Shown piece by piece: positions 4,711 to 50,508 of a stretch of DNA of 64,000 nt; the first letter of the stretch is position 1; every line of letters starts with the position of its first letter. The DNA comes from an uncultured Planctomycetia bacterium (GTDB lineage: Bacteria > Planctomycetota > MHYJ01 > WSZJ01 > CAZYRM01): the NCBI GenBank assembly GCA_964649705.1, contig CAZYRM010000003.1:29850-93849 (forward strand). Reading direction: 5' to 3'. The notes beneath the pieces are model-generated. The model was not told where the DNA came from and made no database searches. It saw only the letters and a list, made by a program, of their open reading frames with translations. The position numbers and the translations under genes are program-made.

Positions 4711-4766
4711 GTTCCGGGCATCCGGCGTGGTCAGCAGTCGCCAAGGTGATCGCCAGGCCGCGCGGC

Positions 4767-25401: not shown

Positions 25402-26873
25402 CGGCATCGCTCCCACGAATCCTGCGCTCCATCGGCAGCCCGAGGGTCCTCGTGGTCGGGGACCTGATCCTGGACCAGTACGTGCTGGGTTCGGTCGAGC
25501 GGGTCTCTCCCGAGGCGCCGATCCAGGTCCTCGCGGTGCGGGAGGAGCAGTACCGCCTGGGCGGGGCGGCGAACGTGGCGAACAACCTCGTGCGCCTGGG
25601 CGCGCGGGTCTGCTGCGCGGGCGTGGTGGGGGCCGACGAGGTCGGACGCAGGCTCCTCGGCGAGCTGAAGGGCGCGGGCGTCGACGTCTCGGCCGTCGTG
25701 CGCGACCCCTCCCGCCCGACGCCGCTCAAGACGCGGATGATCGCCCACCACCAGCACATGCTCCGCGTCGATCGCGAGAAGACGCACGCCCTCGTGCACA
25801 CGGTCGAGGACCAGCTCATCCGCCGGGTCCGTCGCGCCGCGCGCAGGGCGGACCTCGTGCTCCTCTCGGACTACGCGAAGGGCACGCTCACGGACCGCGT
25901 CCTCGCGCTCTTCCGGGAGCGGACGCTCCGAGGCGTTCCCGTCATCGTCGACCCGAAGGGGCTGGACTACCGGCGCTACCGCGGCGCGACGGCGATCACG
26001 CCGAACGAGGGGGAGGCGTCCCTCGCCACCGGAATGCAGATCCGTGACGACGAGAGCCTGCGCGCGGCGGCGAAGAGGCTCCTCGACGAGCTCTCGCTGC
26101 GCTTCATCGTGATCACCCGCGGCGAGCGCGGGATGTACCTGCTGGAGTGGAACGGCAAGGAGGTCGTCGTCCCCTCCGAGGCGCGCGAGGTCTTCGACGT
26201 GACGGGCGCCGGCGACACAGTGCTGGCGACGCTCGGCCTCGTGGTGGCCGCGGGGCACCCGCCCGAGCCGGCCGTGCGCCTGGCGAACACGGCGGGGGGC
26301 CTGAAGGTGGAGAAGCTCGGCACGGCGACGCTGACGCGCGACGAGCTGCTCGCGCGCCTCGCGGAGCACCACCGGGCCACGGACCAGCAAGCTGGCTTTG
26401 CCAGGGGGAAGGTCCTCTCGGCGCGCCGCCTCGCGACGGTGATCGAGGGGCACCGGGCCAAGGGGGAGTCGGTGGTCTTCACGAACGGCTGCTTCGACCT
26501 GATCCACGCGGGGCACGTCCGCTCGATCCGCTTCGCGCGGTCGCAGGGAGACGTCGTCGTGGTCGCGATCAACTCGGATGCGGGCGTGCGGCGCCTGAAG
26601 GGAGAAGGACGTCCGATCCTGCCCGCGGCGGAGCGGGCGGAGATGCTCGCGGCGCTCGAGGACGTCGACTACGTCACGGTCTTCAGCGAGCCGACCCCGG
26701 TGAGGCTCCTGCGCCTGCTCAAGCCGGACGTGCTCGTCAAGGGAGGCGCGTACGGCCACGAGGGGGTCGTCGGGCACGAGGTGGTGGAGAAGTACGGCGG
26801 CCGGATCGCGCTGGCGCCCATGGCCCAGGGGCTCTCGACGACGGACCTGATGAAGAGGATCCGAGGGAAATGA
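25398..26873 (+). CDS. hldE: Bifunctional D-beta-D-heptose 7-phosphate kinase / heptose 1-phosphate adenylyltransferase
   Basis: N-terminal PfkB-type kinase domain (DVTGAGDT) and C-terminal cytidylyltransferase domain (TNGCFDLIHAGH). Confidence 0.9.
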   Translation: MTASLPRILRSIGSPRVLVVGDLILDQYVLGSVERVSPEAPIQVLAVREEQYRLGGAANVANNLVRLGARVCCAGVVGADEVGRRLLGELKGAGVDVSAVVRDPSRPTPLKTRMIAHHQHMLRVDREKTHALVHTVEDQLIRRVRRAARRADLVLLSDYAKGTLTDRVLALFRERTLRGVPVIVDPKGLDYRRYRGATAITPNEGEASLATGMQIRDDESLRAAAKRLLDELSLRFIVITRGERGMYLLEWNGKEVVVPSEAREVFDVTGAGDTVLATLGLVVAAGHPPEPAVRLANTAGGLKVEKLGTATLTRDELLARLAEHHRATDQQAGFARGKVLSARRLATVIEGHRAKGESVVFTNGCFDLIHAGHVRSIRFARSQGDVVVVAINSDAGVRRLKGEGRPILPAAERAEMLAALEDVDYVTVFSEPTPVRLLRLLKPDVLVKGGAYGHEGVVGHEVVEKYGGRIALAPMAQGLSTTDLMKRIRGK

Positions 26874-27445
26874 GGACGAACCGCGCGCGCATTGAGGCGG
26901 CGATCGTGCAGTCGATCGCGGTCAAGCACCTGTTCCTCGCCACGCGGGTGGAGGTGCTCTGCCGGATCGCGGACGCGGCCAGCACGGCCCTCCGCCGCGG
27001 TGGGAAGATCGTGCTGTTCGGCAATGGAGGCAGCGCGGCCGACGCGTGCCATATTGCGACGGAGCTGGTCGGTCGGTTCAAGAAGGACCGCCGCGCCATT
27101 CCGGCCCTCGCGCTGGGGACAAACGTGCAGCTCCTGACGGCCATTGCGAACGACCTGGGTTACGAGGAGTCGTTCGCGCGCGAAGTAGACGCGCACGTGA
27201 CGAGGAAGGACCTGGTCATCGCGATCAGCACGAGCGGGAACTCGCCAAACGTCCTGCGCGCGGTCGCGCGCGCGAAGGCGAAGGGAGCGCTGGTCGCGGG
27301 ATTCACGGGGGCGAAGGGCGGAAAGCTGCGCTCGCGCGTCGACCTGCTGCTGGACGTCCCCTCGGACGACACGCCGCGGGTCCAGGAGTGCCACCTGCTT
27401 GCGGGGCACATCCTGTGCGAGGTGATCGAGGCCGAGACCAGCTAG
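26870..27445 (+). CDS. gmhA: Phosphoheptose isomerase (SIS domain)
   Basis: ATG overlapping hldE stop; SIS motifs GNGGSAADA, ISTSGNS; 3' 60-200 bp re-occur as fragments at 35647 and 37446. Confidence 0.85.
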   Translation: MRTNRARIEAAIVQSIAVKHLFLATRVEVLCRIADAASTALRRGGKIVLFGNGGSAADACHIATELVGRFKKDRRAIPALALGTNVQLLTAIANDLGYEESFAREVDAHVTRKDLVIAISTSGNSPNVLRAVARAKAKGALVAGFTGAKGGKLRSRVDLLLDVPSDDTPRVQECHLLAGHILCEVIEAETS

Positions 27446-27498
27446 CCCGATCCCTCGGGGCCATGTCCGATGTCTGAAGATCAGGCAGTAGCGCGATT

Positions 27499-28188
27499 CT
27501 AGGTCTTCGGCGTGGGCTGTCTGGCGCTCTCGGAAGGGCCGCTCCCGGGCGTCAGGCCCTTGAACATCTTCGAAACCCGGGAATCCTGTCGGAACGCAAG
27601 GGTGCCCGCGGCGATGACCCGGCCGACCGCGCGCTCGCTCCGCTCCTGGGCGGCGTTGCGATCCGAGGTCGCCTGCTTGGCCGTGACCTTCTTCCCCTTC
27701 TGCGAGGTGTCGGCCGTGCCGAGGGCGTCCTTCACGGCCTGGACTGCGACCAAGTCTTCCGGCAGCAGCCCTGCATTCCGCGCACTCTCCGGGTCGTCGC
27801 CCGCCGCCTTGAGGATGGTCTGGAGGCCCGCCTCGACGGAGGAGACCTTGAGCTTGCTGACCTTCACGCCAACGCCGAAGGCCTTGTGGAGCGCCTTGTC
27901 GTTGGGTTGGCCGTCCCGGACGGCGCTGCGGAGGGCGGAGACGAGGTCGGCGCCTGCGCTGGCGGCGTTGCCCTGGGCGACGGTGGAGGAGCTCCGGTCG
28001 GAGCGGACGGCCTTGGCACCGGCGTGTTCACCGCGCAATGCGGCCAAGTCAACCCGGAGGCCATCGAGGAGCCCGGCGGGGAGCCTCGGCTCGATCGCGG
28101 TTCGGTGCTTGTCCCCGAGCGTGTAGGCGGCCTCGCAGACGCGGATCGCCACGTCGACCTGCCACTTGGGCTGCTTCGCCTTGGCCAT
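27499..28188 (-). CDS. Hypothetical protein (first gene of lower-GC inserted segment)
   Basis: 229-aa ORF, Ala/Lys-rich, no recognisable domain. Confidence 0.45.
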   Translation of the reverse strand: MAKAKQPKWQVDVAIRVCEAAYTLGDKHRTAIEPRLPAGLLDGLRVDLAALRGEHAGAKAVRSDRSSSTVAQGNAASAGADLVSALRSAVRDGQPNDKALHKAFGVGVKVSKLKVSSVEAGLQTILKAAGDDPESARNAGLLPEDLVAVQAVKDALGTADTSQKGKKVTAKQATSDRNAAQERSERAVGRVIAAGTLAFRQDSRVSKMFKGLTPGSGPSESARQPTPKT

Positions 28189-28439
28189 GTCATCTCCTGC
28201 TCAAGAGGGGCGGAAGGCCACCATTCGGACACCCCAGATGGAAGGGTTTTGGGGATCGCGTGCAAGCCGTCGGATGGGGGAGGCTGATTCGCCTGTCGCC
28301 CCGACAGGTGGTCACGGAGAGTCCGTGCCCTCCCCCTGGACCACCGGCGCCGGTGGCCTTCGCGCTTCGCGGGGAGTCTGGGCGTTGTGATCGACCCCGA
28401 TGGTCGTTAGAATCGGCGATTACGCGGTGCGGCGGAGAG

Positions 28440-29300
28440 TTGCCAGGTCGAGCTGAGAAGGGCGCCTCCATCAACTTCCTGTTCTGGAATATCGCACGGA
28501 AGCGTCTAGAGACCGATATCGCGCGGTTGGTCCGGGAGCACCACATCGATCTAATCGTACTCTGCGAGTGTACTGTGCCCGTCGGCGCACTGCTGCGCGC
28601 ACTCGGGCAAGTCGCGGCTCCCTTCAACCGAAGCGAGAGAGTACTCCCGGACAGCGGGCTGGAGATCCTGATTCGGTACCCAGCGGAGTTCCTCAAGAAG
28701 TGCCACGATTCGATCGGAATGACGGCGAAGAAGCTCTGCCTCCCTGCAGCAGAGGAAATCCTGCTCACGGTCATGCACCTGCCCAGCCGATTACACTGGT
28801 CGACCGACGCTCAGGCCGCGGAGTGCCATAGAGTGGCGGGGGTTCTCCGGGCGATCGAGGAGAGGATCGGGCATCGCCGCACGGTGCTCGTCGGGGACTT
28901 CAATGTGAACCCGTTCGCATCAGGGATGACCTCCCCCTATGCGTTCCGCGGCGTTTCTACAACGGCAATCGCGAAGAGGGGTGAGGGTATCGTTCGCGGG
29001 GAATCATGGCCGTTCTTCTACAACCCGATGTGGAGTTGCCTGGGGGACCGATCCCCCGGGCCTCCGGGCACCTACTTCAATGACACAGGAACCGCCGACT
29101 GCCTCTTCTGGTACACTCTCGATCAGGTGCTGCTACGGCCCGAGCTCCTGGATCGCTACCCGCTATCGTCGATTCGGATTCTCGATTCCATCGAAGGCAC
29201 CTCATTGTTGAAGGCGAATTCTGGAATACCCGATCGCAAGCGGTTCTCCGATCACCTTCCCTTGCTGTTTTCGTTGGATGTGACCCCGAACGGAGGCTAG
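28440..29300 (+). CDS. Endonuclease/exonuclease/phosphatase (EEP) family protein
   Basis: INFLFWNI N-terminal strand, LVGDFNVNP, C-terminal SDHLPL catalytic His motif; start codon uncertain (TTG 28440 in frame; no in-frame ATG nearby); region GC markedly lower than flanks. Confidence 0.6.
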   Translation: MPGRAEKGASINFLFWNIARKRLETDIARLVREHHIDLIVLCECTVPVGALLRALGQVAAPFNRSERVLPDSGLEILIRYPAEFLKKCHDSIGMTAKKLCLPAAEEILLTVMHLPSRLHWSTDAQAAECHRVAGVLRAIEERIGHRRTVLVGDFNVNPFASGMTSPYAFRGVSTTAIAKRGEGIVRGESWPFFYNPMWSCLGDRSPGPPGTYFNDTGTADCLFWYTLDQVLLRPELLDRYPLSSIRILDSIEGTSLLKANSGIPDRKRFSDHLPLLFSLDVTPNGG

Positions 29301-29302
29301 AG

Positions 29303-29716
29303 ATGTCGACGACCGAGCAGCCCAGCAGCCTCTGGCCCAAGGACTTGGTCGACCGTGCCGTAGAGGCGCCGATCGCGATCCTCAAGGAACAGGGCTCGGA
29401 ACTTCAGAAGTTGACCAAGAACATGCTCAAGGGGGAGCCGCGAGTGACGAAGGTGCCGGGGGAAGACGGGGATCGCCTGATCGTCTCATTCGTCGTAGTC
29501 GCGCCCGCCCTCGCCGACTACGAGGTGGAGCTCCTCTCCTTCGAGCAATCGACGTCGCTCTATCCGATTGAAGTGTCCTCCATGGGCTTCAAGTTGCCGA
29601 AATCCAGAATCTCGTCGGCTGAGCAGTTCCGTCATTACCTGAGAGGGAAGCTGGCGACCCCCAAGGTGAAGAACGTGATCAGTTCACTCTTGGCGCAGGC
29701 CAAGGCCATCAGCTAG
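29303..29716 (+). CDS. Hypothetical protein
   Basis: 137-aa ORF starting 3 nt after EEP stop; lower GC. Confidence 0.45.
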   Translation: MSTTEQPSSLWPKDLVDRAVEAPIAILKEQGSELQKLTKNMLKGEPRVTKVPGEDGDRLIVSFVVVAPALADYEVELLSFEQSTSLYPIEVSSMGFKLPKSRISSAEQFRHYLRGKLATPKVKNVISSLLAQAKAIS

Positions 29717-29916
29717 CAGAGGTGCTGGGGGAGCTCCGCGACCCGAAGGGATCGGACACGCGACGAGGCGGGTCCCGACGGTCAAGTCGAGCGTGAATGG
29801 CTTCAGACCCGCTCGCAGGGCGGATCGGAAGGCGTCGGGGGTTTCCGATCTGCCCTCTATCACTCCCCGTCGCGCGGGAGAGCGATCGAGTACCTCTCCG
29901 TCTGAATACTCGACGC

Positions 29917-30465
29917 CTACGGGGCCTGCCAGATGATCTTTCCGTTCGCATCGAGGAGAGTGACGCTCGGGAGTCCATTCACGTCCACGCCCTCGGCCAC
30001 GCGAATCTTGCCGTTCGAATCGAAGAGGGTGAGGCTCGGGGATCCATCCACGTCCACGCCCTCTGCTACGCGGAGCTTGCCGTCCGCGTCGCGGAGAGTG
30101 AGATACGGGGACCCTGAGGGGAGCACGCCCACTGCCGTACGGAGCTTCTCGTTGCCGTCGAGAAAACGAAGGGCCGGGGGCCCGTTCGGATCGATGCCCA
30201 AGAACATGAGCGACTTCCCGTCCGCGCTGGACATTTCGAGGGTCGGGGAGTCTCCCTGCCCCACGATCTCGCGCACGTGCAACACCGCGCGTTCCTGCCC
30301 GTCCGTGTCCCGCAGGACGAATTTCGTCGCCTCCACGGTCCCGTCAGGCGAGGTCCATCCCACTGCGACCAAGGCGGCGAAAGCGAGGGACAGCAGAGCC
30401 ACAGCGCCCTTGAGGTGGCGGTTCGACCGCTCCAGGCGGTCGAGACGGTCGGTCAGGTTGTCCAT
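29917..30465 (-). CDS. Membrane-anchored protein with ~20-aa tandem repeats
   Basis: N-terminal TM/signal anchor; repeats GSPYLTLRDADGKLRVAEGVDVDGSPSLTLFDSNGKIRVAEGVDVNGLPSVTLLDANGKI. Confidence 0.5.
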   Translation of the reverse strand: MDNLTDRLDRLERSNRHLKGAVALLSLAFAALVAVGWTSPDGTVEATKFVLRDTDGQERAVLHVREIVGQGDSPTLEMSSADGKSLMFLGIDPNGPPALRFLDGNEKLRTAVGVLPSGSPYLTLRDADGKLRVAEGVDVDGSPSLTLFDSNGKIRVAEGVDVNGLPSVTLLDANGKIIWQAP

Positions 30466-30868
30466 GGTGTTCCTCCTGAAAAGTACGGTGGCCAGCCTAC
30501 AGAGGCGAGTCTCTCACGTCACGCCGTTTGCGTTTCGTCGCGGTGCCCCTCACTGGACGGCGCGGGAGTGATCTGCGGGTCCCCCAGCTCGCGGAAGGCG
30601 AGTTCGACGAGGTCATGCACGAGCGCGTCGAACGGGCCGCGCTGCCGCGTCGGCGGCCAGAGTCAGATAGCCGCGGAGGGAGAACGCCCGCAGGTACAAT
30701 CTGAGTTCGTTGCGCCAGCGACGCGCGCTGAGTTCGACGTCCTCGTGCTTCCCCTCCTCCACCACAGACCGGGACGGGATCGTGAAGGCACGCGTCGCTC
30801 GATCGACCTCTGGATTGCAGTGGGCGGCGCGAGGTACCATCTGCTACATGCCGCCGTAGGAGAGGACG

Positions 30869-33800
30869 ATGGTGGACGACGCGAGCAGCCCGCCCGCTAG
30901 TAGCACGGACGCTCAACCCAGCGAGCACCTCGCCGGGGACCTTCTACGAGGGGTGCCAGGCACCGTCTCCACTGAGCCTTCGGGGACGGGCTCTGCTGAT
31001 CTCGAAACGCCCCACTCAGGGTTGTCGACGCTCTCGCTGGCGAAGCCAGCTGCGGCGATCGCTGCTGAAGGGCCTACGCCCGACGCGGCGACACCTCTGC
31101 TCACGGGACTGACGTGGGCTTGGCCGAACGTGCCGCGGCGGCTCGGCCAATACGAATTGGTCGGAGAGCTGGGCCATGGCGGGATGGGGATCGTTTTCCG
31201 TGCGCGGCACGTGAAGCTGGGGACGGAATGCGCGGTGAAGGTCCTCATCGCCGGGGAGCACGCCTCACCCGAGATGATGTCGCGGTTCCAGCGCGAGGCG
31301 GCGGCGGTCGCCAGGATGGGGAAGCACCCAAACATCGTTACGGTTTTCGATCTCGGACAGGAGGGCAGCCTCTTCTACTACGCGATGGAGCTGGTGGACG
31401 GCATGTCGCTCTCTAGGCTCTTGCGCGAGCGGGGGGGAGAGTTCACACCCCAAGAGACGGCAGTCCTCGTGGAACAGGTCGCACGCGCGGTCCACTTCGC
31501 ACATGCGCACAAGGTGATTCACAGGGACCTGAAGCCCGACAACATCGTGGTGCGCACCATCTCGACTGGCGCGAGCATCGCTTGGGAGCCGCAAGTGATG
31601 GACTTCGGCCTCGCGCGCGACATCGGATCCGCGGAGAAGCTCTCCGTGACCGGGCATGTGATGGGCTCGCCGAACTACATGGCCCCCGAGCAGGCCTGGG
31701 GGAGGCACGAGGAGAGCGACGCGCGAACGGACGTCTACGGGCTCGGTGCAATTCTCTACCAGATGCTCGCGGGCTTTCCTCCGCATCCCGGTAGGGACCA
31801 GTACAAGGTCATAGACGACATTCGGAGAGGCAAGGAGGTCGTCCTGCCCAGGCGAGTGCGGTCCGACGCACCCAAGGACCTGGAGACGATTTGCCTCAGG
31901 TGCCTGGAGGTAGTGCAGGGCAAGCGCTATCCAACCGCGGAGGCCCTCGCCGAGGACCTCGCGAGGTTCAGGCGCGGGGAGCCAGTCCACGCGCGGCCGG
32001 TGTCCTTGGCGTCGCGGGCATGGCGTAGAGCAGTGCGGCACTGGCGGGTCGTCTTGCCGAGCACTGTGGCGGTCGGCGTGGCCCTCGCGTTCGGGCTCTA
32101 CGCGGTCGTAAGTCATTTCCGGCACGTTCGAGATCTCGACGCGGAGCAGGGGAGGACGCAGGCGGCGCTGCTGAAGACAGAGGATGCACTCACGATCGCC
32201 GAGGAGGCGAAGGTCTTGGCGCAGGCCTCGGAGGCTCGAGAGGGGAGGCTCAAGCGGAGATCCCAGGCAGAGGCGGAGATCCTCAAGGCGCAACGAGACT
32301 CGAACGCTGGGAACCAAATGAACGCCCTGGCCCACGCGATTGCCTCTGTGCGACTCCGCCCAGGGGCTGTTGCCGCAGAGGAGGCGTGGCGGGCACACGC
32401 ATTCGCACCCGCTGTCCGTTGGTGCTCACCGAGCAAGGTAGGCCACCAGGACTCCCTCAGGTGGGTCTCGTTCAGCCCAGATGGGAGCCGGATACTCTCC
32501 GTGTCCCTGGACAACACGGTTCGTTCTTGGGAGGTGTCCTCGGGGAAGGAGCTTGTTCGCCACGATGTGCATACGAGCGGCGTCATGTGCCTCGCGCTCA
32601 GCTCGGACGGTACCCGGCTCGTGTCGTTCTCGCCAGACAACGCAGGCTCCGTGTGGGACACGGCCACCGGGAGGGAGGTGGTCCGCCTCGAGGGGCATAC
32701 GATGCTCGTCATAAACCTCGCGCTCAGCCCGGACGGTACCCGTGTAGTATCAGGGTCCGCGGACAACACGGTTCGCATCTGGGACGCGGACTCGGGCGAG
32801 GAGTTAGCTCGCCCTGAAGGGCACCCAAAATTCGTCTCCTCCTTGGCCTTCAGCCCGGACGGCAAGCGAGTTGCCGTGGCTGGTGACTGGGTCGGGATCT
32901 GGGACGTCGCGTCAGCGAAGCTCGTGGCACGCCTCGAAGGGGATAATTTCCGTGTCCATGAGGTTGCCTTCAGCCCGGATGGCGCCCGAGTCGTTGGGGT
33001 GCTAGACGACAGCGCTATCCGAATCTGGGACGCGCCTTCGGGCAAAGAGTTGGCGCGCCTCCAAGGCGATGCGGGGTATGTCACTTGCCTCGCTCTCAGC
33101 CCGGACGGGAACCACGTCGTCTCGGGGTCTGTCGACAACTCGATTCGTCTGTGGGACACAGCCTCAAGGAAGGAGACGGCTCGTCTCCAGGGGCATAGGG
33201 CGCCCGTGAGGTCGGTCGCCTTCAGTCCAGACGGGAGTTGGGTCGTCTCGGGATCGGACGACCACACGGTCCGTCTCTGGGATACGGCCCCGAGGAAGGA
33301 GGTCGGCCGTATCGAGGGGCACACCAACATCGTAAGTTCCATTGCCTTCAGCCCGGATGGAAGCCGACTTGTGACGGGATCCGGCGACAACACGCTCCGC
33401 CTCTGGAACGCGACGACCGGCAGGGAGATCACCCGCTTCGAAGGGCATACAGAGATGGTCCATTCGGTCGCCTTCAGTCTGGACGGGACCCATCTCGCCT
33501 CGGGATCCGGTGACGACACGGTCCGCCTTTGGGACGTGGCGACAGGGAAGGAGGTGGGCCGGCTCGAAGGGCATACAGGGTGCGTCATTTCGGTCGACTT
33601 TAGCCCAGACGCGAGCCGAGTCCTGTCGCGTTCCGATTCGACCGCCAGCCTCTGGAACCTCGCCTCGGGGAAGGAGGTCGCCCGCATCGGCGGGCAGGAC
33701 GACTTCGTGACGAACGTTTCTTTCAGCCCAGATGGCAGGTGGATCGTCTCCGCCTTGGGCGGCAGCACGATTCACCTCCTAGACGCGGCCTCTGGAAGGG

Positions 33801-35122
33801 AGGTAGCTCGCCTCACGGGACATACGGACATGGTGTGTCGGGTCACCTTCAGCCTTGACGGCATGCGGCTCGTCTCGGGATCCCTGGACAACACCATACG
33901 CATATGGGATGCGGCCTCTGGGAAGGAGGTGAGTCGCCTTACCGGGCATACGGGCTCCGTCACTTTCGTCGCGTTCGCCCTGGACGGGACCAGGGTCGTC
34001 TCCGCGTCACTGGACGACACGGTCCGGCTCTGGGACGTAGCGTCGGAGAGCGAGGTGGCCAAGTTGGAACGGGTAAAGAGCGATGGCACGGCCCTCAGCC
34101 TCAGCCCGGACGGGGCTAGGATTGCAAGGAGTGGAGTCGACGGGGTGCTGCTCTGGGACGCAGCGTCAGGTAAGGAGGTGGCCCGGTTTGCGGGACCTAC
34201 CAGGAGTTTCATGCCCGTAGTGTTCAGCCCAGACGGGAGTCGGATTGCGTTGGTCGGGGTCGAGGAGGGGGTCCGAGTTCTTGACGCAGCCTCGGGAAGG
34301 GAAGTAGCCCGGCTCGGGGGCCATAGCGACGAGGTTACGTGCGTTGCGTTCAGCCCTGATGGTACCCGTGTCGTCTCGGCGTCGTCGCTGGACGGGACTG
34401 TCCGTCTCTGGGACGCCGCGTCCGGGGGAGAGATAGCGTGCCTCAAGGGACACGCCGAGACCGTCTCGTCCGTAGCCTTCAGCCTGGACGGCACCAGGGT
34501 GGTTTCGGGGTCCCACGACAAGACGATTCGGGTTTGGGACGCGAGTTCAAGCAAGCAGCCGGCTCCCTTTGAGGGGCATGCGGATCGCGTTGCGTTCGTC
34601 GCGTTCAGCCCCGATGGAACCCGGATCGTCTCGGCGTCCAAGGACAAGACGGTCCGGCTCTGGGACGCGGACTCGGGGGAGGAGGTAGGACGGCTCCAGG
34701 GGCATACGGCCCCTGTCAGGGTGGTCGCCTTTAGCCCCGACGCGATGTGGGTGACTTCGGAGGACTCTAACGGAGTGGTCCTACGTTGGAATGCGACCAC
34801 AGGCGCACCGGTCCAGGAATCTGACGAGGCAGCAGCCAAGGCGTGTCTCGACGAGTGGCTCGCGATCCAGGGCCTGCGCGCGCCAACTCGCCTTCCCCAC
34901 GTCGGCGCAGTCATCCTGGAAGGTGAGGCCGAGTGGCGCACGGCATGGAGCGACCCCGAGCGGGGCGAAAACGGCCTCCCGAGGAAGGTGGCACGGATCC
35001 TCGACCGGTGGGAACATGATATCGGCATGCGAGTCGACATTGAGACGGGTAAACTCGTGCGCCTCTCGTGCCCCGGCCCCGCCTTCGCGAACGACCCTCA
35101 GATCGCACCGCTGTGCAAGTAG
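30869..35122 (+). CDS. Serine/threonine protein kinase fused to ~28 WD40 repeats (1417 aa)
   Basis: Hanks kinase motifs GELGHGGMGIVFRA, AVKVL, HRDLKPDNIVV, DFGLAR, APE; followed by regularly spaced WD40 units (GH...V.S.AFSPDG..V.SGS.D.T.RLWD). Confidence 0.85.
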   Translation: MVDDASSPPASSTDAQPSEHLAGDLLRGVPGTVSTEPSGTGSADLETPHSGLSTLSLAKPAAAIAAEGPTPDAATPLLTGLTWAWPNVPRRLGQYELVGELGHGGMGIVFRARHVKLGTECAVKVLIAGEHASPEMMSRFQREAAAVARMGKHPNIVTVFDLGQEGSLFYYAMELVDGMSLSRLLRERGGEFTPQETAVLVEQVARAVHFAHAHKVIHRDLKPDNIVVRTISTGASIAWEPQVMDFGLARDIGSAEKLSVTGHVMGSPNYMAPEQAWGRHEESDARTDVYGLGAILYQMLAGFPPHPGRDQYKVIDDIRRGKEVVLPRRVRSDAPKDLETICLRCLEVVQGKRYPTAEALAEDLARFRRGEPVHARPVSLASRAWRRAVRHWRVVLPSTVAVGVALAFGLYAVVSHFRHVRDLDAEQGRTQAALLKTEDALTIAEEAKVLAQASEAREGRLKRRSQAEAEILKAQRDSNAGNQMNALAHAIASVRLRPGAVAAEEAWRAHAFAPAVRWCSPSKVGHQDSLRWVSFSPDGSRILSVSLDNTVRSWEVSSGKELVRHDVHTSGVMCLALSSDGTRLVSFSPDNAGSVWDTATGREVVRLEGHTMLVINLALSPDGTRVVSGSADNTVRIWDADSGEELARPEGHPKFVSSLAFSPDGKRVAVAGDWVGIWDVASAKLVARLEGDNFRVHEVAFSPDGARVVGVLDDSAIRIWDAPSGKELARLQGDAGYVTCLALSPDGNHVVSGSVDNSIRLWDTASRKETARLQGHRAPVRSVAFSPDGSWVVSGSDDHTVRLWDTAPRKEVGRIEGHTNIVSSIAFSPDGSRLVTGSGDNTLRLWNATTGREITRFEGHTEMVHSVAFSLDGTHLASGSGDDTVRLWDVATGKEVGRLEGHTGCVISVDFSPDASRVLSRSDSTASLWNLASGKEVARIGGQDDFVTNVSFSPDGRWIVSALGGSTIHLLDAASGREVARLTGHTDMVCRVTFSLDGMRLVSGSLDNTIRIWDAASGKEVSRLTGHTGSVTFVAFALDGTRVVSASLDDTVRLWDVASESEVAKLERVKSDGTALSLSPDGARIARSGVDGVLLWDAASGKEVARFAGPTRSFMPVVFSPDGSRIALVGVEEGVRVLDAASGREVARLGGHSDEVTCVAFSPDGTRVVSASSLDGTVRLWDAASGGEIACLKGHAETVSSVAFSLDGTRVVSGSHDKTIRVWDASSSKQPAPFEGHADRVAFVAFSPDGTRIVSASKDKTVRLWDADSGEEVGRLQGHTAPVRVVAFSPDAMWVTSEDSNGVVLRWNATTGAPVQESDEAAAKACLDEWLAIQGLRAPTRLPHVGAVILEGEAEWRTAWSDPERGENGLPRKVARILDRWEHDIGMRVDIETGKLVRLSCPGPAFANDPQIAPLCK

Positions 35123-35646
35123 AGCAACAGGGTCGACTCTGGACGCGTGCTGCCCTTCGCTTTCCTCAGCTCAGGGAGGCGTTTTCGACGCTTCCCTCTG
35201 CGTCATTGCCGCCAGCAGCTTCAGGTTTCTCTCCTCCTCCCCACCCTCCCGCAGACCCTGCTCGCACCTCCTTCGCAGTTCCGCGATCCACGCGGCCAGC
35301 GGTCGCCCGCCGAACGGCGGCGCAGCGGCGCTGGCTCCCCATTCCGCGATTCCACCTCCTCCCGCCCGTTTTCCCCTGGTCCCCTCCCCCGCGCAAAGTG
35401 GCCCCCTGCGGGACCGCGATCAACACGAGCGGGCCACGCGGCGCGGCCGGGGAGGCCCCGGAGCGCTTGCGCGCATCGTAGGGTTGCAGAAACGGCGGGT
35501 GGAGCGCGGATTTGTTTCGTGTAAGGGTAGCACTACACCGGGCGACGGTAGCATCGTGTCGGGCACGGGAAGCCTCGCATCGGACGAGGGAAGCATCCCG
35601 TCGGCTGGGGCATCCCCTTCGAGCCCCCCCGGCCCATTGCTGTCCG

Positions 35647-35859
35647 CCGAACGTGCTTCGCGCGGTCGCCAGGGCGAAGGCGGTCGGCGCGATGGTCGTC
35701 GGCTTCACCGGCGCGAAGGGCGGGAAGCTGCGCTCCCGCGTCGACATGCTGCTCGACGTCCCCTCGGACGACACGCCGCGGGTCCAGGAGTGCCACCTGC
35801 TGGCGGGGCACATCCTGTGCGAGGTCGTCGAGGCCGAGGTGTCCGGGGGGTCTCTTTGA
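35647..35859 (+). pseudogene. Duplicated 3' fragment of gmhA (71 C-terminal codons)
   Basis: Translates PNVLRAVARAKAVGAMVVGFTGAKGGKLRSRVDMLLDVPSDDTPRVQECHLLAGHILCEVVEAEVSGGSL*, ~90% identical to GmhA C-terminus encoded at 27236-27445; no upstream SIS N-terminus. Confidence 0.7.
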
Positions 35860-35946
35860 TATGTGATATCTGCTATGAGATATCTGATATGGGCATCGGG
35901 GCCTCCATATCAGATATGTCATAGCAGATATCACATATCAGATATC
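35858..35946. repeat. AT-rich palindromic element copy C (complete hairpin: 34-bp arms, 15-nt loop)
   Basis: gatatgtgatatctgctatgagatatctgatatg - ggcatcggggcctcc - atatcagatatgtcatagcagatatcacatatcagatatc; arms reverse-complementary with 1 mismatch; begins inside stop codon of gmhA fragment. Confidence 0.8.
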
Positions 35947-36105
35947 TTGTGGGGACTCGGTTCCCCTGTACTGCCGCGTTGCTGGCACATCGCTCTCGGG
36001 TCCATCTCTGGTGTTTTCGAGGCGTCCGTCGCCCTCCCGGGGGCGTGTCGCGGAACTGGGACGCGATTCTGTGACCGGGGGCCCGGGCCGTCCCAAAACG
36101 CGACG

Positions 36106-36195
36106 GGCGGATCGTCGCGGGTCTCCCGCGCATCGTCGCGAGTCTCCCGCGCATCGTCACGAGTCTCCCGCGCATCGTCACGAGTCTCCCGCGAT
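36106..36195. repeat. 21-bp tandem repeat x ~4.3 (gagtctcccgcgcatcgtcac)
   Basis: Direct read: gtctcccgcgcatcgtcgcga / gtctcccgcgcatcgtcacga / gtctcccgcgcatcgtcacga / partial. Confidence 0.7.
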
Positions 36196-36439
36196 CGGCT
36201 GGGCGTCTACGCCTCTTGCCCATCTCGCCTGGGGGCCTCGCGCAGGTCGGACCAGAGGAGCGCCCGGTTCCCCTCGAAGCCGTGGGCCACGCGGCGGGTT
36301 GCGAGGATCAGGCGGACGTCGGCGTCGTCGGAGAGTCGCTCCATGAGCCGGCTGACGACCTCGTAGCCGAGATCGACAGGGTCGGCGAGGTATCGGTTCC
36401 TGACCGCCTGACGGGAGGAGACTCGCCCGGCGCCCCGAG

Positions 36440-37346
36440 CTAGTCGTCCTTCGCGGTCGGGCGCCAGATGATCATGTCTTTCATCTGGTCGTCCCGGAGG
36501 TGGTCCAGGACCACGAAGCGCTTGTCCTGAGTGTTCTGGTGGACGATCGACGAGCCCGTCTGCTTCGGGAGCGGCTTGATGAGCACCATCACGTGCATGG
36601 GGTTGGTGAGCACGTCTCCCGGGAGCGCGTCCTTCCACTGGATCTTCTTGCCGAACTTGTAGCCGCCCTGCACCCCGAAATCCTGGCGCCCCAGCCGCCA
36701 CATCGGGTCCCCGGGCAGCTCGCTGCACTCGCCGGAGCGCACCTGCTGACCCACGCGCGAGAACGCGAACAGGAGGATCTCCTGGTTCATCGCCGGCAGG
36801 AGACCGAGGTCGCACACCTTCGCGTAGTCGCACCCGTCGGCCTTGGGCAGCTCCTGCGCCTGGCGCTGCGCGACGCTGCCCTTCTTGAGGTCGAACACCG
36901 TGAGGTGCAGCGACGGCTTGCCGCCGGTGGTCTTGACGCGCGGCTCGATCAGGTACTCCGCGTGCTGCTTGTCCTTCCATTCGGCCACGTCCTCGTTCTT
37001 GAACAGGACTCCCTTCGGCAGGGCCCCCTCGGCGTACTCCACCTTCAGCGGATGCTCGGCCTCGGCCTTGAAGAGGTAGACGCCGTTCTTGAGGAGCGCC
37101 TGCTGCAGGGCGAGCTGAATCTGCCCGCACGAGGCCTGGAGCGGGTCGGCCTCGGTCTCGCAGCGCACCTGGAGCATGGCGACGACCGACTCCTTCGTGA
37201 GGCCGACGACCTGCTTGCCGACCTTCGTCAGGCCGGCGGAGAGCACGGCGCGCGCCTTGTCGTCCTCGGCGCCGACAGGCACGAGGCCGCGGGCCAGCAG
37301 AAGCGCGATCACGAGCACCCAGGACGTTCCACGATGCGGCATGGCG
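36440..37346 (-). CDS. Secreted hypothetical protein (cargo of 1.6-kb cassette)
   Basis: Signal peptide MPHRGTSWVLVIALLLARGLVPVGA; 302 aa, Lys-rich, GC lower than flanks; start could also be upstream ATG at 37474. Confidence 0.55.
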
Positions 37347-37445
37347 GGCCCTCCTCGCGCCCGCCCCGCGTCGACCCAGGCCAGGTCGCAGGAGCGAGCG
37401 ATACCATCCCAACGGATCGGAGGGTGGCTTGTCAAGGGTCGATGG

Positions 37446-37510
37446 ACCAGGAGGGCCACCTGCTGGCGGGGCACATCCTCTGCGAGCTGATCGAGGCTTC
37501 GTGCCGGTAG
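37446..37510 (+). pseudogene. Second duplicated 3' fragment of gmhA (~21 codons)
   Basis: accaggagggccacctgctggcggggcacatcctctgcgagctgatcgaggc -> QEGHLLAGHILCELIEA, cf. GmhA VQECHLLAGHILCEVIEAETS. Confidence 0.55.
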
Positions 37511-37530
37511 CCAGGGTGTTCTCCGGACCC

Positions 37531-37655
37531 TATCAGATGTCAGATGTCATATCTCAGATGTCTGATATCGTCGCCCCTGACCTCCAGCCGGCCCGTTCCT
37601 GACAAGATGCGACGACATCAGACATCTGAGATATGACATCAGACATCTGATATCT
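37531..37655. repeat. AT-rich palindromic element copy D (42-bp arms separated by 35-bp spacer)
   Basis: tatcagatgtcagatgtcatatctcagatgtctgatatcgtcg ... cgacgacatcagacatctgagatatgacatcagacatctgatatc; right arm supplies last 5 codons + stop of ABC transporter. Confidence 0.75.
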
Positions 37656-39567
37656 TCGACGTATCCACCGCCCTGTACTGCCTGGTCGCCGTCTCCCTGA
37701 ACTGCAGGTGGTACAGCTTCGAGTACAGCCCCATCCTGTCCAGCAGCTCCGCGTGCGTCCCGATCTCGACCACCATCCCCTTCTCCAGGACCAGGATCCG
37801 GTTCGCGTGCTGCACCGTCGACAGCCGGTGCGCGATCACCAGCACCGTCCGCCCTTCCATCAGCCGGTTCAGCGCCGCCTGAACGGCCTGCTCCGACTCG
37901 CTGTCGAGCGCGCTGGTCGCCTCGTCCAGCAGCAGCACCTGCGGGTCCCTGAGGATCGCCCTCGCGATCGCGATCCGCTGCCTCTGCCCGCCCGACAGCT
38001 TCGCCCCTCTCTCCCCCACGATCGAGCCGTATCCCTCCGGGAGCGTCACGATGAAGTCGTCGATGTTCGCCGCCTGGGCCGCGGCCCGCACCTCCTCCAT
38101 CGTCGCCTGGGGCCGCCCGTAGCGTATGTTCTCCTCGATCGTCGTGTGGAAGAGGAACGTGTCCTGCGACACGATGGCCAGCCGCGAGAGGAGCGACGGG
38201 CGGGCCATCCTCCGAAGGTCGACCCCGTCCACCTCGATCGCCCCTTCCGTGGGGTCGTAGTACCTCGCCATCAGGTCGAGGAGCGTCGACTTCCCCGCCC
38301 CCGTCGGCCCCACGATGGCGATCACCTCTCCCTGGCGGATCGAGATGCTGACGTCCTTCAGGACCGGCTCGTCCCGATAGGCGAACCCCACGCCCTTGAA
38401 CTCGATCCCGCGCGCGATGGGCGGGCACTCGACCGCGTCCCCGACGTCCTCGACCTCCGCGTGCGTGTCGAGCAGCTCGAACACGCGGTCGCACGCGGCG
38501 ACGGACTCCTGCAGGATGTTGAACGTCTTCGAAATCGTCTTGAGCTCGCGGTTCACGGCGACCCAGGCCAGCACGAATCCCGCGAACGATCCGCCCGTCA
38601 ACCCGAACTTGCGGTTGATGACGAGCCAGCCGCCGACCACGACCAGGCCCGCGATCCCCGCGGACTGCGCCAGTTCCAGGAACCCCGACGAGAGGGCCTT
38701 CGCCCGCACGAGCGACATGTGCCTCCGCACGAACTCTCGGCACCGCTCGTCGAACTGCGCGAGCATCCGCGACTCGAGCCGGAACGCCTTCACGACGCGG
38801 ATCCCGCCGAACATCTGGTTCATCGTCTCCGTCATCTCTCCCAGCCGGTCGAGCGTCTTGCGCTTCGAGACCTTCATCTTCTTGCCGAGCGCGTAGACGG
38901 GCAGCACGATGAGCGGCAGGAGGACGAACATCCCCACGGCGAGCTGCCACGAGTACCAGGCCGCGATGCCGATCCCGACGACGACCATCATCGGCTGCAG
39001 CACCAGGTCGCCGAAGAGCGCCGTCATCGCGCCCTGGACGACCGAGACGTCGTTCGTCACGCGCGAGATCAGGTCGCCCGCCTTCCGGTCGTGGAAGAAC
39101 TTGAGCGACAGCCCGAGCATGTGCCTGCACAGGTCGCGACGCAGGTCGATCATCGACCGGATCATGACCCACTTCTGGAGGAACTCCTGGGCGTAGTCCA
39201 GCAGGCCCAGCGGGATCGCCAGGGCAAGGCAGATCACGGCGAGCCGCTTCAGCACGTCCCAGGAGTCGCTGCCCGCCTGGGAGAGGAACACGCCGTCGAA
39301 CAGCGGCCGCACGAGCGCCAGCCGCCCCATGTAGCACGCGCTGTACGCCGCCATCGTGAACAGGCAGAGGAGAACGAGCATCTGGTACGGCAGCGCGTAC
39401 CGGTACAGGCGGGCGAGGGAGAAGACCCAGCCGAGCCTTCCGCGGTCTGCGAGGCGGCCGAGGCCCGCGGCGGCCAGCCGGACCGCTCCGTACAGCGCAG
39501 CGAACAGGGCGACGTCTACGGCGAGGACGAGGGCCCAATGCTCCCTGGCCCACAGGACGGCGCGCAT
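37639..39567 (-). CDS. ABC transporter permease/ATP-binding fusion (MsbA-like exporter)
   Basis: 6 TM helices then NBD with Walker A GPTGAGKST, signature LSGGQRQRIAIARA, Walker B LLLDEATSALD; start at MRAVLWAREHW. Confidence 0.85.
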   Translation of the reverse strand: MRAVLWAREHWALVLAVDVALFAALYGAVRLAAAGLGRLADRGRLGWVFSLARLYRYALPYQMLVLLCLFTMAAYSACYMGRLALVRPLFDGVFLSQAGSDSWDVLKRLAVICLALAIPLGLLDYAQEFLQKWVMIRSMIDLRRDLCRHMLGLSLKFFHDRKAGDLISRVTNDVSVVQGAMTALFGDLVLQPMMVVVGIGIAAWYSWQLAVGMFVLLPLIVLPVYALGKKMKVSKRKTLDRLGEMTETMNQMFGGIRVVKAFRLESRMLAQFDERCREFVRRHMSLVRAKALSSGFLELAQSAGIAGLVVVGGWLVINRKFGLTGGSFAGFVLAWVAVNRELKTISKTFNILQESVAACDRVFELLDTHAEVEDVGDAVECPPIARGIEFKGVGFAYRDEPVLKDVSISIRQGEVIAIVGPTGAGKSTLLDLMARYYDPTEGAIEVDGVDLRRMARPSLLSRLAIVSQDTFLFHTTIEENIRYGRPQATMEEVRAAAQAANIDDFIVTLPEGYGSIVGERGAKLSGGQRQRIAIARAILRDPQVLLLDEATSALDSESEQAVQAALNRLMEGRTVLVIAHRLSTVQHANRILVLEKGMVVEIGTHAELLDRMGLYSKLYHLQFRETATRQYRAVDTSKISDV

Positions 39568-39604
39568 CGCGGCGACGATTCGTTCCGTTTCCACGTGCCG
39601 GCGC

Positions 39605-49958: not shown

Positions 49959-50005
49959 TCCGACGTCGACGCGCCAGCAGCGTTGCCCTTGGGGGTCTGG
50001 CGGGC

Positions 50006-50054
50006 GAGGCCTCCATATCAGATATCTCATAGCAGATACCACATATCACATATC
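50006..50054. repeat. AT-rich element copy E (single arm = right arm of copy C)
   Basis: gaggcctcc atatcagatatctcatagcagataccacatatcacatatc vs copy C ggggcctcc atatcagatatgtcatagcagatatcacatatcagatatc. Confidence 0.7.
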
Positions 50055-50441: not shown

Positions 50442-50452
50442 GTCGAACCCTC

Positions 50453-50508
50453 CTATGTGATCTGGGATATCTGATATGTGATATCTGATATGTGATATTG
50501 GATATGCG
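50453..50508. repeat. AT-rich element copy F (inverted relative to E)
   Basis: ctatgtgatctgggatatctgatatgtgatatctgatatgtgatattggatatg; reverse complement resembles copy E. Confidence 0.7.

What the first reader, a model, noticed from the sequence alone, without database searches (positions are those of the whole stretch)
27380..37510. Triplicated 3' end of gmhA delimits two tandem insertions (8.4-kb lower-GC island and 1.6-kb cassette)
The intact gmhA gene (26870..27445) ends in ...PRVQECHLLAGHILCEVIEAETS. A 213-bp copy of its 3' end (71 codons, ~90% nt identity) recurs at 35647-35859. A shorter, more diverged copy (QEGHLLAGHILCELIEA) recurs at 37446-37510. Each of the three copies is followed within 0-20 bp by an AT-rich palindromic element or its remnant. 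Direct repeats of a gene's 3' end are the classic signature of site-specific integration that reconstitutes the target. The intervening DNA (27446-35646) is visibly lower in GC, especially 28400-30500. It carries an EEP nuclease, a tandem-repeat membrane protein and a 1417-aa Ser/Thr kinase-WD40 protein. The second segment (35947-37445) carries a 21-bp tandem repeat and one secreted-protein gene. No integrase is present, so the elements are either decayed or mobilised in trans.
Basis: seen in the sequence. Interest (0 to 1): 0.75.

Follow-up and report, generated by a model that had tools for sequence, protein, structure and literature searches.

The report
DNA islands flanked by gmhA-end relics
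In an uncultured groundwater planctomycete, about 10 kb of extra DNA was slotted in behind the sugar-pathway gene gmhA in at least two steps, each giving the gene a new tail and leaving the old tail as a relic; this is a familiar kind of genomic island, unusual in having no integrase and in being tied to a family of hairpin repeats.

Summary
gmhA (26870-27445) has a 194-213-nt copy of its 3' end at 35645-35859 (88% identity) and a 69-nt copy at 37444-37512 (83%).

- **Empty site.** Two related contigs have gmhA abutting a convergent MsbA-like ABC-exporter gene. A third has only a hairpin repeat between them. So the roughly 10.2 kb at 27446-37638 is inserted DNA.
- **Not an artefact.** An independent assembly spans the whole region at 99.99% identity.
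- **Nature of the copies.** Copy 2 differs from gmhA mostly at third codon positions (5/2/16). It therefore diverged as a working gene end and is not a decaying paralogue. The E. coli prophage e14 shows the same pattern at icd/icdC.
- **No recombinase.** None was found in either segment or in any other window gene tested.
- **Against one att core.** The two relics start at different gmhA positions. A 48-nt stub of the ABC gene's 3' end sits beside hairpin P2. An identical P2 with the same stub lies at an unrelated locus.
- **The palindromes.** They are a dispersed heptamer-repeat hairpin family, and one copy encloses a 23S-rRNA-IVS-type four-helix-bundle gene. The "remnant" after copy 1 is weak.

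Best reading: successive single-crossover insertions that replace the gmhA 3' end, catalysed in trans. This is a new member of a known kind, of moderate interest.

The parts
25452..26873 (+). hldE (bifunctional heptose kinase/adenylyltransferase), upstream anchor gene. Its 3' end overlaps the gmhA start.
   Evidence: PfkB + CTP_transf_like domains. Same hldE-gmhA order in L083, L085-L088.
26870..27445 (+). Intact gmhA (191 aa). Its last ~200 nt (27243-27445) is 'copy 1', the currently used 3' end.
   Evidence: SIS_2 at 4e-24. Closest relatives are 73-86% identical in amino acids. Alignment.
27463..27485 (.). Possible truncated arm of a hairpin element (P1 remnant): ATGTCCGATGTCTGA plus a short CTGA..TCAG.
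   Evidence: It sits at the same 17-20-nt offset from the stop as the hairpins in L087, L088 and copy 3. No significant fold (z = -0.64), so this call is weak.
27446..35644 (.). Island A (8.2 kb). Genes: 229-aa (27499-28188, -), EEP nuclease (28575-29300, +), 137-aa (29303-29716, +), 182-aa membrane protein with 69-nt repeats (29917-30465, -), and a 1417-aa Ser/Thr kinase-WD40 protein (30869-35122, +). These are followed by 522 nt of non-coding DNA holding a degenerate 21-nt array (35539-35604).
   Evidence: Absent from L083, L085 and L088. GC 0.59-0.66 and GC3 0.75-0.84 in the core. Domains. No recombinase, and nothing in PHROGs or PADLOC beyond generic kinase hits.
35645..35859 (+). Copy 2: a displaced former gmhA 3' end. 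It has 71 in-frame codons and its own tail ...EAEVSGGSL*, with the stop inside P2.
   Evidence: 88% identity over 194 nt (D7). Differences by codon position are 5/2/16, with 14 synonymous versus 5 non-synonymous codons. There is a 47-nt tract identical to copy 1, then one mismatch, then 27 identical nt.
35857..35946 (.). Hairpin element P2: 36-nt arms, 97% complementary, 12-nt loop.
   Evidence: I10. dG -35.5 kcal/mol, z = -10.7. Its right arm plus loop is 92% identical to 50005-50056 (D5). An identical copy lies at another locus (L097).
35947..35990 (-). Stub of the ABC-exporter 3' end. On the reverse strand it reads ...ATRQYRGTESPQDI*.
   Evidence: The 12-mer CCCTGTACTGCC sits at the same 16-nt offset from P2 and from P3. 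At peptide level it matches the real C-terminus ...ATRQYRAVDTSKISDV* and L088 ...RQYRGTDTSKISDV*.
35991..37443 (.). Segment B cargo: a 21-nt tandem array (36107-36211) and a 300-aa secreted-protein gene (36440-37342, -).
   Evidence: (D12). No family hit. GC3 of 0.95 is native-like. A related 21-nt array lies beside the other P2 locus.
37444..37512 (+). Copy 3: the oldest and probably original gmhA 3' end (QEGHLLAGHILCELIEASCR*).
   Evidence: 83% identity over 69 nt (D9). It is nearest to the L087 allele, with 3 differences in 51 nt. A conserved Cys is changed to Gly, consistent with a relic.
37531..37654 (.). Hairpin element P3: 44-nt arms, 95% complementary, 34-nt loop. Its right arm supplies the last codons and the stop of the ABC gene.
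   Evidence: I2. dG -43.9 kcal/mol, z = -10.5. It is orthologous to the hairpins after gmhA in L087 and L088.
37639..39594 (-). MsbA-like ABC exporter (651 aa), the ancestral convergent neighbour of gmhA.
   Evidence: ABC_membrane + ABC_tran; MsbA_lipidA at 1e-150. It lies directly next to gmhA in L083, L085 and L088. The 651-aa form is on record.
4670..4815 (.). Another member of the hairpin family, not next to any gmhA fragment.
   Evidence: Arms of 41 nt, 98% complementary (I3). dG -52.9 kcal/mol, z = -11.4.
50013..50506 (.). A hairpin-family member whose arms enclose a 131-aa four-helix-bundle / 23S-rRNA-IVS-protein gene (50046-50441, -).
   Evidence: PF05635 at 4e-19 and TIGR02436 at 1e-26. 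Arms (I12). The same locus appears in five other assemblies.

Best explanation
In this clade gmhA and an MsbA-like ABC-exporter gene are convergent neighbours. In some members a heptamer-repeat hairpin element (P) lies between them. In the window, 10.2 kb has been added between the two genes by at least two successive single-crossover (Campbell-type) insertions inside the last ~70-210 nt of gmhA.

Each incoming DNA carried its own working copy of the gmhA 3' end together with the hairpin that follows gmhA. Recombination fused that copy to the resident gene body. It pushed the previous 3' end, with its hairpin, downstream, where it persists as an untranslated relic.

Inferred order:
1. Copy 3 + P3 is the original end.
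2. Copy 2 + P2 + a 48-nt ABC stub arrived with segment B.
3. The present end, with a hairpin remnant, arrived with island A.

Neither segment encodes a recombinase, so the crossover was catalysed in trans. The catalyst was either host homologous recombination acting on the 25-47-nt identical tracts, or an integrase encoded elsewhere.

Shown: the insertion, the relic nature and functional past of the fragments, reconstitution of gmhA, and the absence of a recombinase in cis. Inferred: circular intermediates, the order of events, and the enzyme.
For: - **Empty and intermediate sites.** L083 and L085 have gmhA abutting the ABC gene. L088 has gmhA-hairpin-ABC with the same rewritten ABC tail (...DTSKISDV*) as the window.
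- **Independent assembly.** It is identical across 26440-39652.
- **Copy 2 diverged as a functional coding end.** Codon-position differences are 5/2/16, with 14 synonymous versus 5 non-synonymous codons, and the frame is open.
- **Copy 3 with P3 is nearest to the L087 and L088 alleles and hairpins**.
- **Each copy has a different tail, spacer and hairpin variant.** These are three alleles of one junction rather than recent in-situ duplicates.
- **Identity tracts suitable for a crossover.** 47 + 27 nt between copies 1 and 2, and 25 nt between copies 2 and 3.
- **Same anatomy as e14 in icd.** The last 165 nt of icd are annotated inside the prophage, icdC is the displaced relic, 153/165 nt are identical, and codon-position differences are 1/0/11 (PMC4759930).
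- **Atypical GC and GC3 in the core of island A**.
- **No recombinase.** None in the island genes, in 6-frame reading by eye of the non-coding stretches, or in about 35 other window genes.
Against: - No circular form, excised allele or island-free variant of this strain is on record. The GmhA 90% cluster has one member.
- The relics begin at different positions in gmhA, so a single att core is not evident.
- Homology of 69 nt at 83-88% is short for RecA-type recombination.
- The ABC stub beside P2, and the identical P2 + stub at an unrelated locus (L097), show that pieces of this junction also move or recombine in some way this model does not explain.
- Sliding identity could not show which of copy 1 or copy 2 is native to the lineage.
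- Segment B is compositionally native, so it may be an intragenomic rearrangement rather than an acquisition.
Confidence: 0.5

Rival explanations
1. Two classical integrative elements each used a tyrosine or serine integrase specific for the gmhA 3' end. They either lost the integrase or never had one, in which case they are CIME-like, flanked by att sites and mobilised in trans by a cognate element. They accreted in tandem.
For: - Tandem relics of the target 3' end with gene reconstitution are the textbook signature, and the pattern matches e14/icd.
- The core of island A is compositionally foreign.
- Downstream of gmhA is variable in the clade: L107 has a different neighbour.
Against: - No integrase, excisionase or fragment of one was found anywhere tested.
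- The relics start at two different gmhA positions.
- The two segments share no end sequences.
- The duplicated module extends past gmhA through the hairpin into the ABC gene's 3' end, which an attP does not need.
- No gmhA-bearing viral contig was found.
- None of seven relatives shows an integrase at this site.
- No paper linking gmhA to an att site was found.
Confidence: 0.25
2. The stub-hairpin-stub unit (gmhA stub, P2, ABC stub; about 350 nt, 35645-35990) is itself a mobile or gene-converting hairpin module that carries flanking gene ends with it. On this reading a single island (A+B) was inserted once, leaving copy 3. The P2 module landed inside it later.
For: - An identical P2 with the same roughly 50-nt ABC stub lies downstream of an unrelated 237-aa gene (L097). 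That stub ends at the same distance from the arm in both loci. A 75%-identical homologue locus (L098) lacks it.
- The hairpin family is dispersed: 43 motif hits against 0.56 expected.
- Hairpin types after gmhA differ between relatives.
- Related 21-nt arrays flank both P2 loci.
Against: - Landing by chance within 10 kb of its own source junction is unlikely unless homology guided it, which collapses this model into the main one.
- The far side of the second P2 copy was not recoverable, so a gmhA stub there is unproven.
- The exact 55-aa stub ORF is on record only from this locus.
- No transposase or reverse transcriptase is associated with the module.
Confidence: 0.12
3. Homology-facilitated illegitimate recombination or end-joining of linear foreign DNA. 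One end was anchored by gmhA homology. The other end was joined illegitimately upstream of the anchor, which duplicated the gene end. Hairpin-induced breakage may have promoted this.
For: - Relic boundaries are variable and no recombinase is present.
- Long perfect palindromes are known fragile sites (general knowledge).
- There are short GC-rich microhomologies at both relic boundaries.
Against: - A join upstream of the anchor needs two chromatids or a circle.
- The incoming ends carry complete functional gmhA tails plus hairpins.
- There is no direct evidence of breakage.
Confidence: 0.08
4. In-situ tandem duplication or paralogous gmhA copies that decayed, or an assembly artefact.
For: Repeats of a gene end could arise by duplication. 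Short-read metagenome assemblies do break at these repeats: L081 and L094 end there, and L095 joins two loci through P2.
Against: - Copy 2 shows purifying-selection-type divergence, not neutral decay.
- Homology ends sharply, with no upstream gmhA or hldE remnant.
- The three tails and hairpins are different alleles.
- Empty sites exist in relatives.
- An independent contig spans the whole region.
Confidence: 0.03

Closest known systems
Prophage e14 (and phage 21) integrated in the 3' end of icd in E. coli K-12, with the icdC relic
   Same: - The element supplies a substitute 3' end of a housekeeping gene, and the displaced native end persists as a fragment at the far junction.
- The duplicate is 165 nt and 92.7% identical, with differences almost all at third codon positions (PMC4759930).
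- Here the figures are 194-213 nt, 88% identity and codon-position differences of 5/2/16.
   Different: - e14 carries intE/xisE and recombines at an 11-nt core at the left edge of the duplicate.
- Here there is no integrase and no clean core at the edge.
- Here two relics of different length lie in tandem.
- Here the duplicated module also includes an intergenic hairpin and a stub of the opposite gene.
CIMEs and site-specific accretion at the 3' end of fda in Streptococcus thermophilus (ICESt1/ICESt3 family)
   Same: Integrase-less segments bounded by att-like repeats of a protein gene's 3' end, stacked in tandem. This comparison comes from my own knowledge and was not checked with a paper here.
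   Different: CIMEs share identical att cores with a known cognate ICE integrase. No cognate element or common core was found here.
Tandem genomic islands at tRNA/tmRNA gene 3' ends
   Same: Repeated use of one site, with relic 3' ends between the islands.
   Different: The target here is a protein-coding gene. There is no tRNA in the window and no integrase.
23S rRNA intervening sequences (IVS) with an S23p/four-helix-bundle ORF, and REPIN/MITE-type hairpin repeats (for the palindromes only)
   Same: - Long terminal inverted repeats form a stem that can enclose a PF05635/TIGR02436 ORF.
- The Coxiella IVS has a 28-bp terminal stem and tandem heptameric repeats (PMC4990558).
- Like REPINs, the elements are dispersed, intergenic and hairpin-forming.
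   Different: - They lie in intergenic DNA, not in 23S rRNA.
- Most copies have no ORF.
- No RAYT or other transposase was seen.
- The arms are built of GATATC-N heptamers.

Membership tests
Integrase-mediated genomic island / integrative element at a gene 3' end | Present/absent polymorphism: the same flanking genes are adjacent in relatives (empty site) | tested here: met
   L083 and L085 have gmhA directly convergent with the ABC gene. L088 has only a hairpin between them.
Integrase-mediated genomic island / integrative element at a gene 3' end | Direct repeats made of the target gene's 3' end, with the target gene reconstituted | tested here: met
   Copies at 35645-35859 and 37444-37512. 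gmhA is intact.
Integrase-mediated genomic island / integrative element at a gene 3' end | Element-encoded tyrosine or serine recombinase next to an att site | tested here: not met
   - No recombinase family hit was found in Pfam, NCBIfam, PADLOC or PHROGs for any island gene.
- None was found in the other window genes tested.
- The 229-aa end gene is predicted all-helical at low confidence (pLDDT 50).
Integrase-mediated genomic island / integrative element at a gene 3' end | A common identical core at the boundaries, at the same position for elements stacked at one site | tested here: not met
   The relics begin at about -203 and -66 nt from the gmhA stop. The longest shared identical tracts are internal: 47 nt between copies 1 and 2, and 25 nt between copies 2 and 3.
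Integrase-mediated genomic island / integrative element at a gene 3' end | Atypical base composition | tested here: inconclusive
   Met for 28.3-35.1 kb (GC3 0.75-0.84). Not met for the 229-aa gene (0.90) or segment B (0.95).
Integrase-mediated genomic island / integrative element at a gene 3' end | Excision to a circle / restoration of the empty site | not testable with these tools
   No reads are available. No island-free allele of this strain's GmhA is in the protein collection (cluster of one member).
CIME (cis-mobilisable element) | att-flanked, no recombination genes, and a cognate integrase-bearing element using the same site in related genomes | tested here: inconclusive
   The first two features are met. 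No cognate element was seen in seven related contigs or in viral contigs. All of those contigs are short.
23S rRNA IVS element (palindromes) | Terminal inverted repeats forming a stem around an S23p/four-helix-bundle ORF | tested here: met
   The arms at 50013-50048 and 50454-50506 enclose a PF05635/TIGR02436 ORF.
23S rRNA IVS element (palindromes) | Located inside a 23S rRNA gene helix and excised by RNase III | tested here: not met
   There is no rRNA or any Rfam family in the window. All copies are intergenic.
REPIN/MITE-type repeat (palindromes) | Many dispersed near-identical hairpin copies | tested here: met
   - Four loci lie within 64 kb, with 43 motif hits against 0.56 expected.
- An identical P2 sits at a second locus.
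- Fold z-scores are about -10.5 to -11.4.
REPIN/MITE-type repeat (palindromes) | Cognate transposase (RAYT or an IS parent) and target-site duplications | tested here: not met
   No transposase was found in the window. Comparison of L083 with L088 shows no clear duplication. The rest of the genome was not available.
Integron cassette array / IMEX at dif | IntI with attC hairpins, or 28-nt dif-like repeats bounding the units | tested here: not met
   There is no IntI. The repeats bounding the units are 69-213-nt gene ends, not the hairpins or dif-like sites.

The most novel reading that the evidence does not exclude
The IVS-like heptamer-repeat hairpins are the active agents. They move or gene-convert together with about 50-200 nt of the gene ends on either side. 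That would create portable copies of the gmhA-hairpin-ABC junction, which then serve as homology handles. Unrelated DNA could be captured behind gmhA, and possibly elsewhere, without any element-encoded integrase.
Probability: 0.13. Interest if true: 0.7.

Novelty: new member of a known kind. Interest (0 to 1): 0.35.

Why it matters
- **A new target gene.** No paper naming gmhA as an integration target turned up in one literature search. Here it is documented with empty, intermediate and occupied states, in a poorly known, uncultured Planctomycetota lineage.
- **Integrase-less stacking.** The locus shows how islands can stack at a gene end while keeping the gene intact, with no integrase of their own.
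- **The side observation may be the more interesting part.** A dispersed hairpin family is related in architecture to 23S rRNA intervening sequences. It sits between convergent genes, rewrites their last codons, and is copied together with neighbouring gene stubs. If these hairpins seed recombination, they would bear on the long-open question of what IVS/four-helix-bundle elements are and how they spread.

Tried and rejected
- **Genome-contig scan with GmhA.** Only relatives at 60% identity or below, so no close genome.
- **Viral-contig scan with GmhA.** Nothing.
- **Metagenome scan with the gmhA core.** One locus, L088, which proved useful.
- **Homologues of the 229-aa end gene.** Three distant proteins in unrelated contexts, with no hairpin or gmhA stub nearby. 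Its structure model was too poor to search with (pLDDT 50).
- **Breakpoint test for a chimeric gmhA.** The maximum chi-square only picked the variable N-terminus. Copy 1 and copy 2 are equally distant from relatives, so I could not say which is native.
- **Shared element ends between island A and segment B.** None above the shuffle background.
- **Upstream gmhA or hldE remnants before copy 2.** One 19-nt match (E = 0.028), treated as chance.
- **Six-frame Pfam scan of the non-coding stretches.** The translations were read by eye only.
- **Second P2 locus.** The 35.9-kb contig that holds it was not returned, so the far side of that hairpin stays unknown.
- **Rejected readings.**
  - tRNA target.
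  - Known RNA family.
  - Defence system: only generic kinase hits.
  - Prophage.
  - Integron or dif/IMEX.
  - Assembly artefact.

Full report
**1. The observation**

The window has about 70% GC. It comes from a Planctomycetota MAG from Hainich H51 groundwater.

gmhA is an intact 191-aa SIS-domain gene at 26870-27445, directly after hldE.

- **Copy 2.** A direct repeat of the gmhA 3' end lies at 35645-35838. It is 88% identical over 194 nt (family D7) and continues in frame to its own stop at 35857-35859.
- **Copy 3.** A shorter repeat lies at 37444-37512, 83% identical over 69 nt (family D9).
- **Boundaries.** Similarity to gmhA stops abruptly on the 5' side of both copies. Nothing resembling the rest of gmhA or hldE precedes them.
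- **Hairpins.** Copies 2 and 3 are each followed by long AT-rich palindromes. P2 is at 35857-35946 and P3 at 37531-37654. Their arms are 36-44 nt and 95-97% complementary. Folded as DNA, P2 gives -35.5 and P3 -43.9 kcal/mol, with z about -10.5.
- **Copy 1.** After it there is only a 15-nt arm-like string at the usual offset, and it does not fold better than shuffles (z = -0.64).
- **Assembly.** A contig from a separate assembly (L093) matches window 26440-39652 at 99.99%, so the arrangement is real.

**2. It is an insertion**

GmhA homologues at 73-86% identity were traced to their contigs.

- In L083 (83%) and L085 (73%) the order is hldE-gmhA, followed directly by a convergent MsbA-like ABC-exporter gene and an M16 peptidase gene. 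The gap is 30 nt in L083 and there is a 20-nt overlap in L085. Neither has a palindrome.
- L088, found with a DNA pattern for the gmhA core, has hldE-gmhA-hairpin-ABC and nothing else.
- In the window the same exporter gene (37639-39594, minus strand) lies 10.2 kb from the gmhA stop.
- L087 and L086 (86%) have a hairpin arm right after gmhA, and their contigs break there. L107 (84%) has a different, co-directional sequence after gmhA.

The site is therefore variable across the clade. Everything between 27446 and 37638 is additional DNA in this lineage.

The P3 hairpin rewrote the last codons of the exporter, from ...DTPRVDA* in L083 to ...DTSKISDV* in the window. L088 shares the rewritten tail. 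P3 is therefore older than the islands.

**3. What the gmhA fragments are**

Copy 2 differs from the present gmhA end at 23 positions, distributed 5/2/16 over codon positions. That gives 14 synonymous and 5 conservative non-synonymous codons, and the frame is open. This is the mark of divergence under purifying selection, so copy 2 was once a working gene end. It is not a paralogue that decayed in place.

Copy 3 is closest to the L087 allele (3 differences in 51 nt). It carries a change of a conserved Cys, as expected of a relic. Its hairpin P3 is orthologous to those of L087 and L088.

The three copies have three different tails, spacers and hairpin variants. They are three alleles of one gmhA-spacer-hairpin junction. 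The natural reading is successive replacement of the gene's 3' end.

The E. coli comparator shows the same anatomy. In MG1655 the last 165 nt of icd are annotated inside prophage e14, and the displaced end survives as icdC. The two are 153/165 identical, with codon-position differences of 1/0/11. Excision restores icd+ through an 11-bp repeat (PMC4759930).

**4. What argues against a simple 'integrase plus att site' story**

- **No recombinase was found.** Pfam, NCBIfam, PADLOC and PHROGs gave no recombinase hit for the island genes. About 35 other genes of the window gave none either.
- **The gene next to the junction is uninformative.** The 229-aa gene is an orphan, all-helical in a poor model.
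- **The relics start at different gmhA positions.** They begin at about -203 and -66 nt from the stop, so no single core is evident.
- **Island A and segment B share no end sequences**.
- **Segment B looks native.** Its 300-aa gene has GC3 of 0.95. Only 28.3-35.1 kb looks foreign, with GC3 of 0.75-0.84.
- **A stub of the other flanking gene sits beside P2.** To the right of P2 lies a roughly 48-nt piece of the exporter's 3' end. The reverse frame reads ...ATRQYRGTESPQDI*. The 12-mer CCCTGTACTGCC is at the same 16-nt offset as beside P3. What was duplicated is therefore a whole junction module (gmhA end, hairpin, exporter end), not just a gmhA att site.
- **The same P2 + stub occurs elsewhere.** An identical P2 core, with the same stub at about 85% identity, lies downstream of an unrelated 237-aa gene in the same population (L097). 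A 75%-identical homologue locus lacks it. Contig L095 joins the two loci through P2, probably as a chimera.

**5. The palindromes**

They form a dispersed family built of GATATC-N heptamers. A two-unit motif occurs 43 times at four loci, against 0.56 expected.

The copy at 50013-50506 encloses a 131-aa four-helix-bundle / 23S-rRNA-IVS-protein gene (PF05635 at 4e-19; TIGR02436 at 1e-26). This is the architecture of 23S rRNA intervening sequences. The Coxiella IVS has a 28-bp terminal stem, tandem heptameric repeats and an S23p ORF, and its origin as a mobile element is an old, unsettled idea (PMC4990558).

Here the elements are intergenic, often between convergent genes. No Rfam family or rRNA is involved. 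They are part of the resident landscape and are not markers of the islands' att sites.

**6. Mechanism**

My best estimate (about 0.5) is at least two Campbell-type single crossovers within the gmhA 3' region. The partners would be the chromosome and circular DNAs that carried a copy of the junction.

- Each event reconstitutes gmhA and displaces the previous end.
- Catalysis was in trans, either by host homologous recombination on the 25-47-nt identical tracts or by an integrase encoded elsewhere.

Rivals:
- The classical decayed or CIME-like integrase model: 0.25.
- A mobile or gene-converting stub-hairpin-stub module that landed in a single older island: 0.12.
- Homology-facilitated illegitimate joining: 0.08.
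- In-situ duplication or an assembly artefact: 0.03.

The data cannot name the enzyme. They cannot tell which of copy 1 or copy 2 is native. They do not reveal the far side of the second P2 locus.

**7. Verdict**

The site-specific integrase mechanism and the role given to the palindromes are not supported.

This is a new member of a known kind: a genomic island at the 3' end of a protein-coding gene with relic ends, like e14/icd. The targeted gene has not, to my knowledge, been described as such a site. The island has two unusual traits: it has no integrase, and it is entangled with an IVS-like hairpin family that carries gene stubs around. Interest is moderate.

Noticed in passing
window 50013-50506 (ORF 50046-50441, minus strand): A hairpin-family member encloses a 131-aa four-helix-bundle / 23S-rRNA-IVS-protein gene. 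It lies between a ComF-like gene and an S41 peptidase gene. The same locus is seen in five other assemblies, including Logan runs SRR32696703/01 and ERR3858132.
   Followed up: partly
window 4670-4815: A hairpin-family copy with a 64-nt GC-rich loop lies in the divergent promoter region between an acyltransferase gene and mlaE. Its outer flanks carry weak inverted GCAGTAC-type boxes that resemble the ABC stub beside P2.
   Followed up: partly
window 35947-35990; L097 1040-1100: A roughly 48-nt stub of the ABC-exporter 3' end sits beside P2. The same stub, with an identical P2 core, lies downstream of an unrelated 237-aa gene at another locus. The far side of that second hairpin could not be retrieved.
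   Followed up: partly
window 37639-37654 versus L083 2503-2520: The P3 hairpin overlaps the ABC-exporter gene and replaces its last codons (PRVDA* becomes SKISDV*). L088 shares the change. The P2 arm likewise supplies the stop codon of the gmhA relic, and the arm at 50046 supplies the stop of the four-helix-bundle gene.
   Followed up: yes
window 36107-36211 and 35539-35604; L095 6790-7002: 21-nt tandem arrays (GCGCATCGTCACGAGTCTCCC; related GCGGATCGTCGCGTTTCTCCG) lie near both P2 loci in the same relative orientation. A weaker array lies just upstream of copy 2. Their function is unknown.
   Followed up: partly
L095 5686-7002: One assembly contig leaves the window sequence exactly at the left edge of P2 and continues into the 237-aa-gene locus. 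This is either a chimera through the palindrome or a structural variant. L094 breaks at the same base. L081 ends inside copy 2 with a copy-1/copy-2 hybrid sequence.
   Followed up: partly
P2 and 4670 element versus P3, L087, L088 and the 50-kb element: The hairpins come in two inside-out topologies. In some, the end of the arm that faces the loop is the end that faces outward in others. P2 looks like the abutted ends of the ORF-bearing element.
   Followed up: no
window 54459-55287: An adjacent UPF0175 (antitoxin-like) and DUF3368 (PIN-like) gene pair, probably a toxin-antitoxin module. A UPF0102 (YraN-like) gene lies next to it at 53835-54458.
   Followed up: no
window 465-1319 and 1984-2124: Five 171-177-nt tandem repeats lie inside an FG-GAP/fn3 surface-protein gene. 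Short Gly/Tyr/His-rich repeats lie downstream of it.
   Followed up: no
L107 970-1050: A relative with 84%-identical GmhA has neither the hairpin nor the ABC gene within 81 nt of the gmhA stop. Instead a possible co-directional gene start follows. This is another state of the variable site.
   Followed up: no
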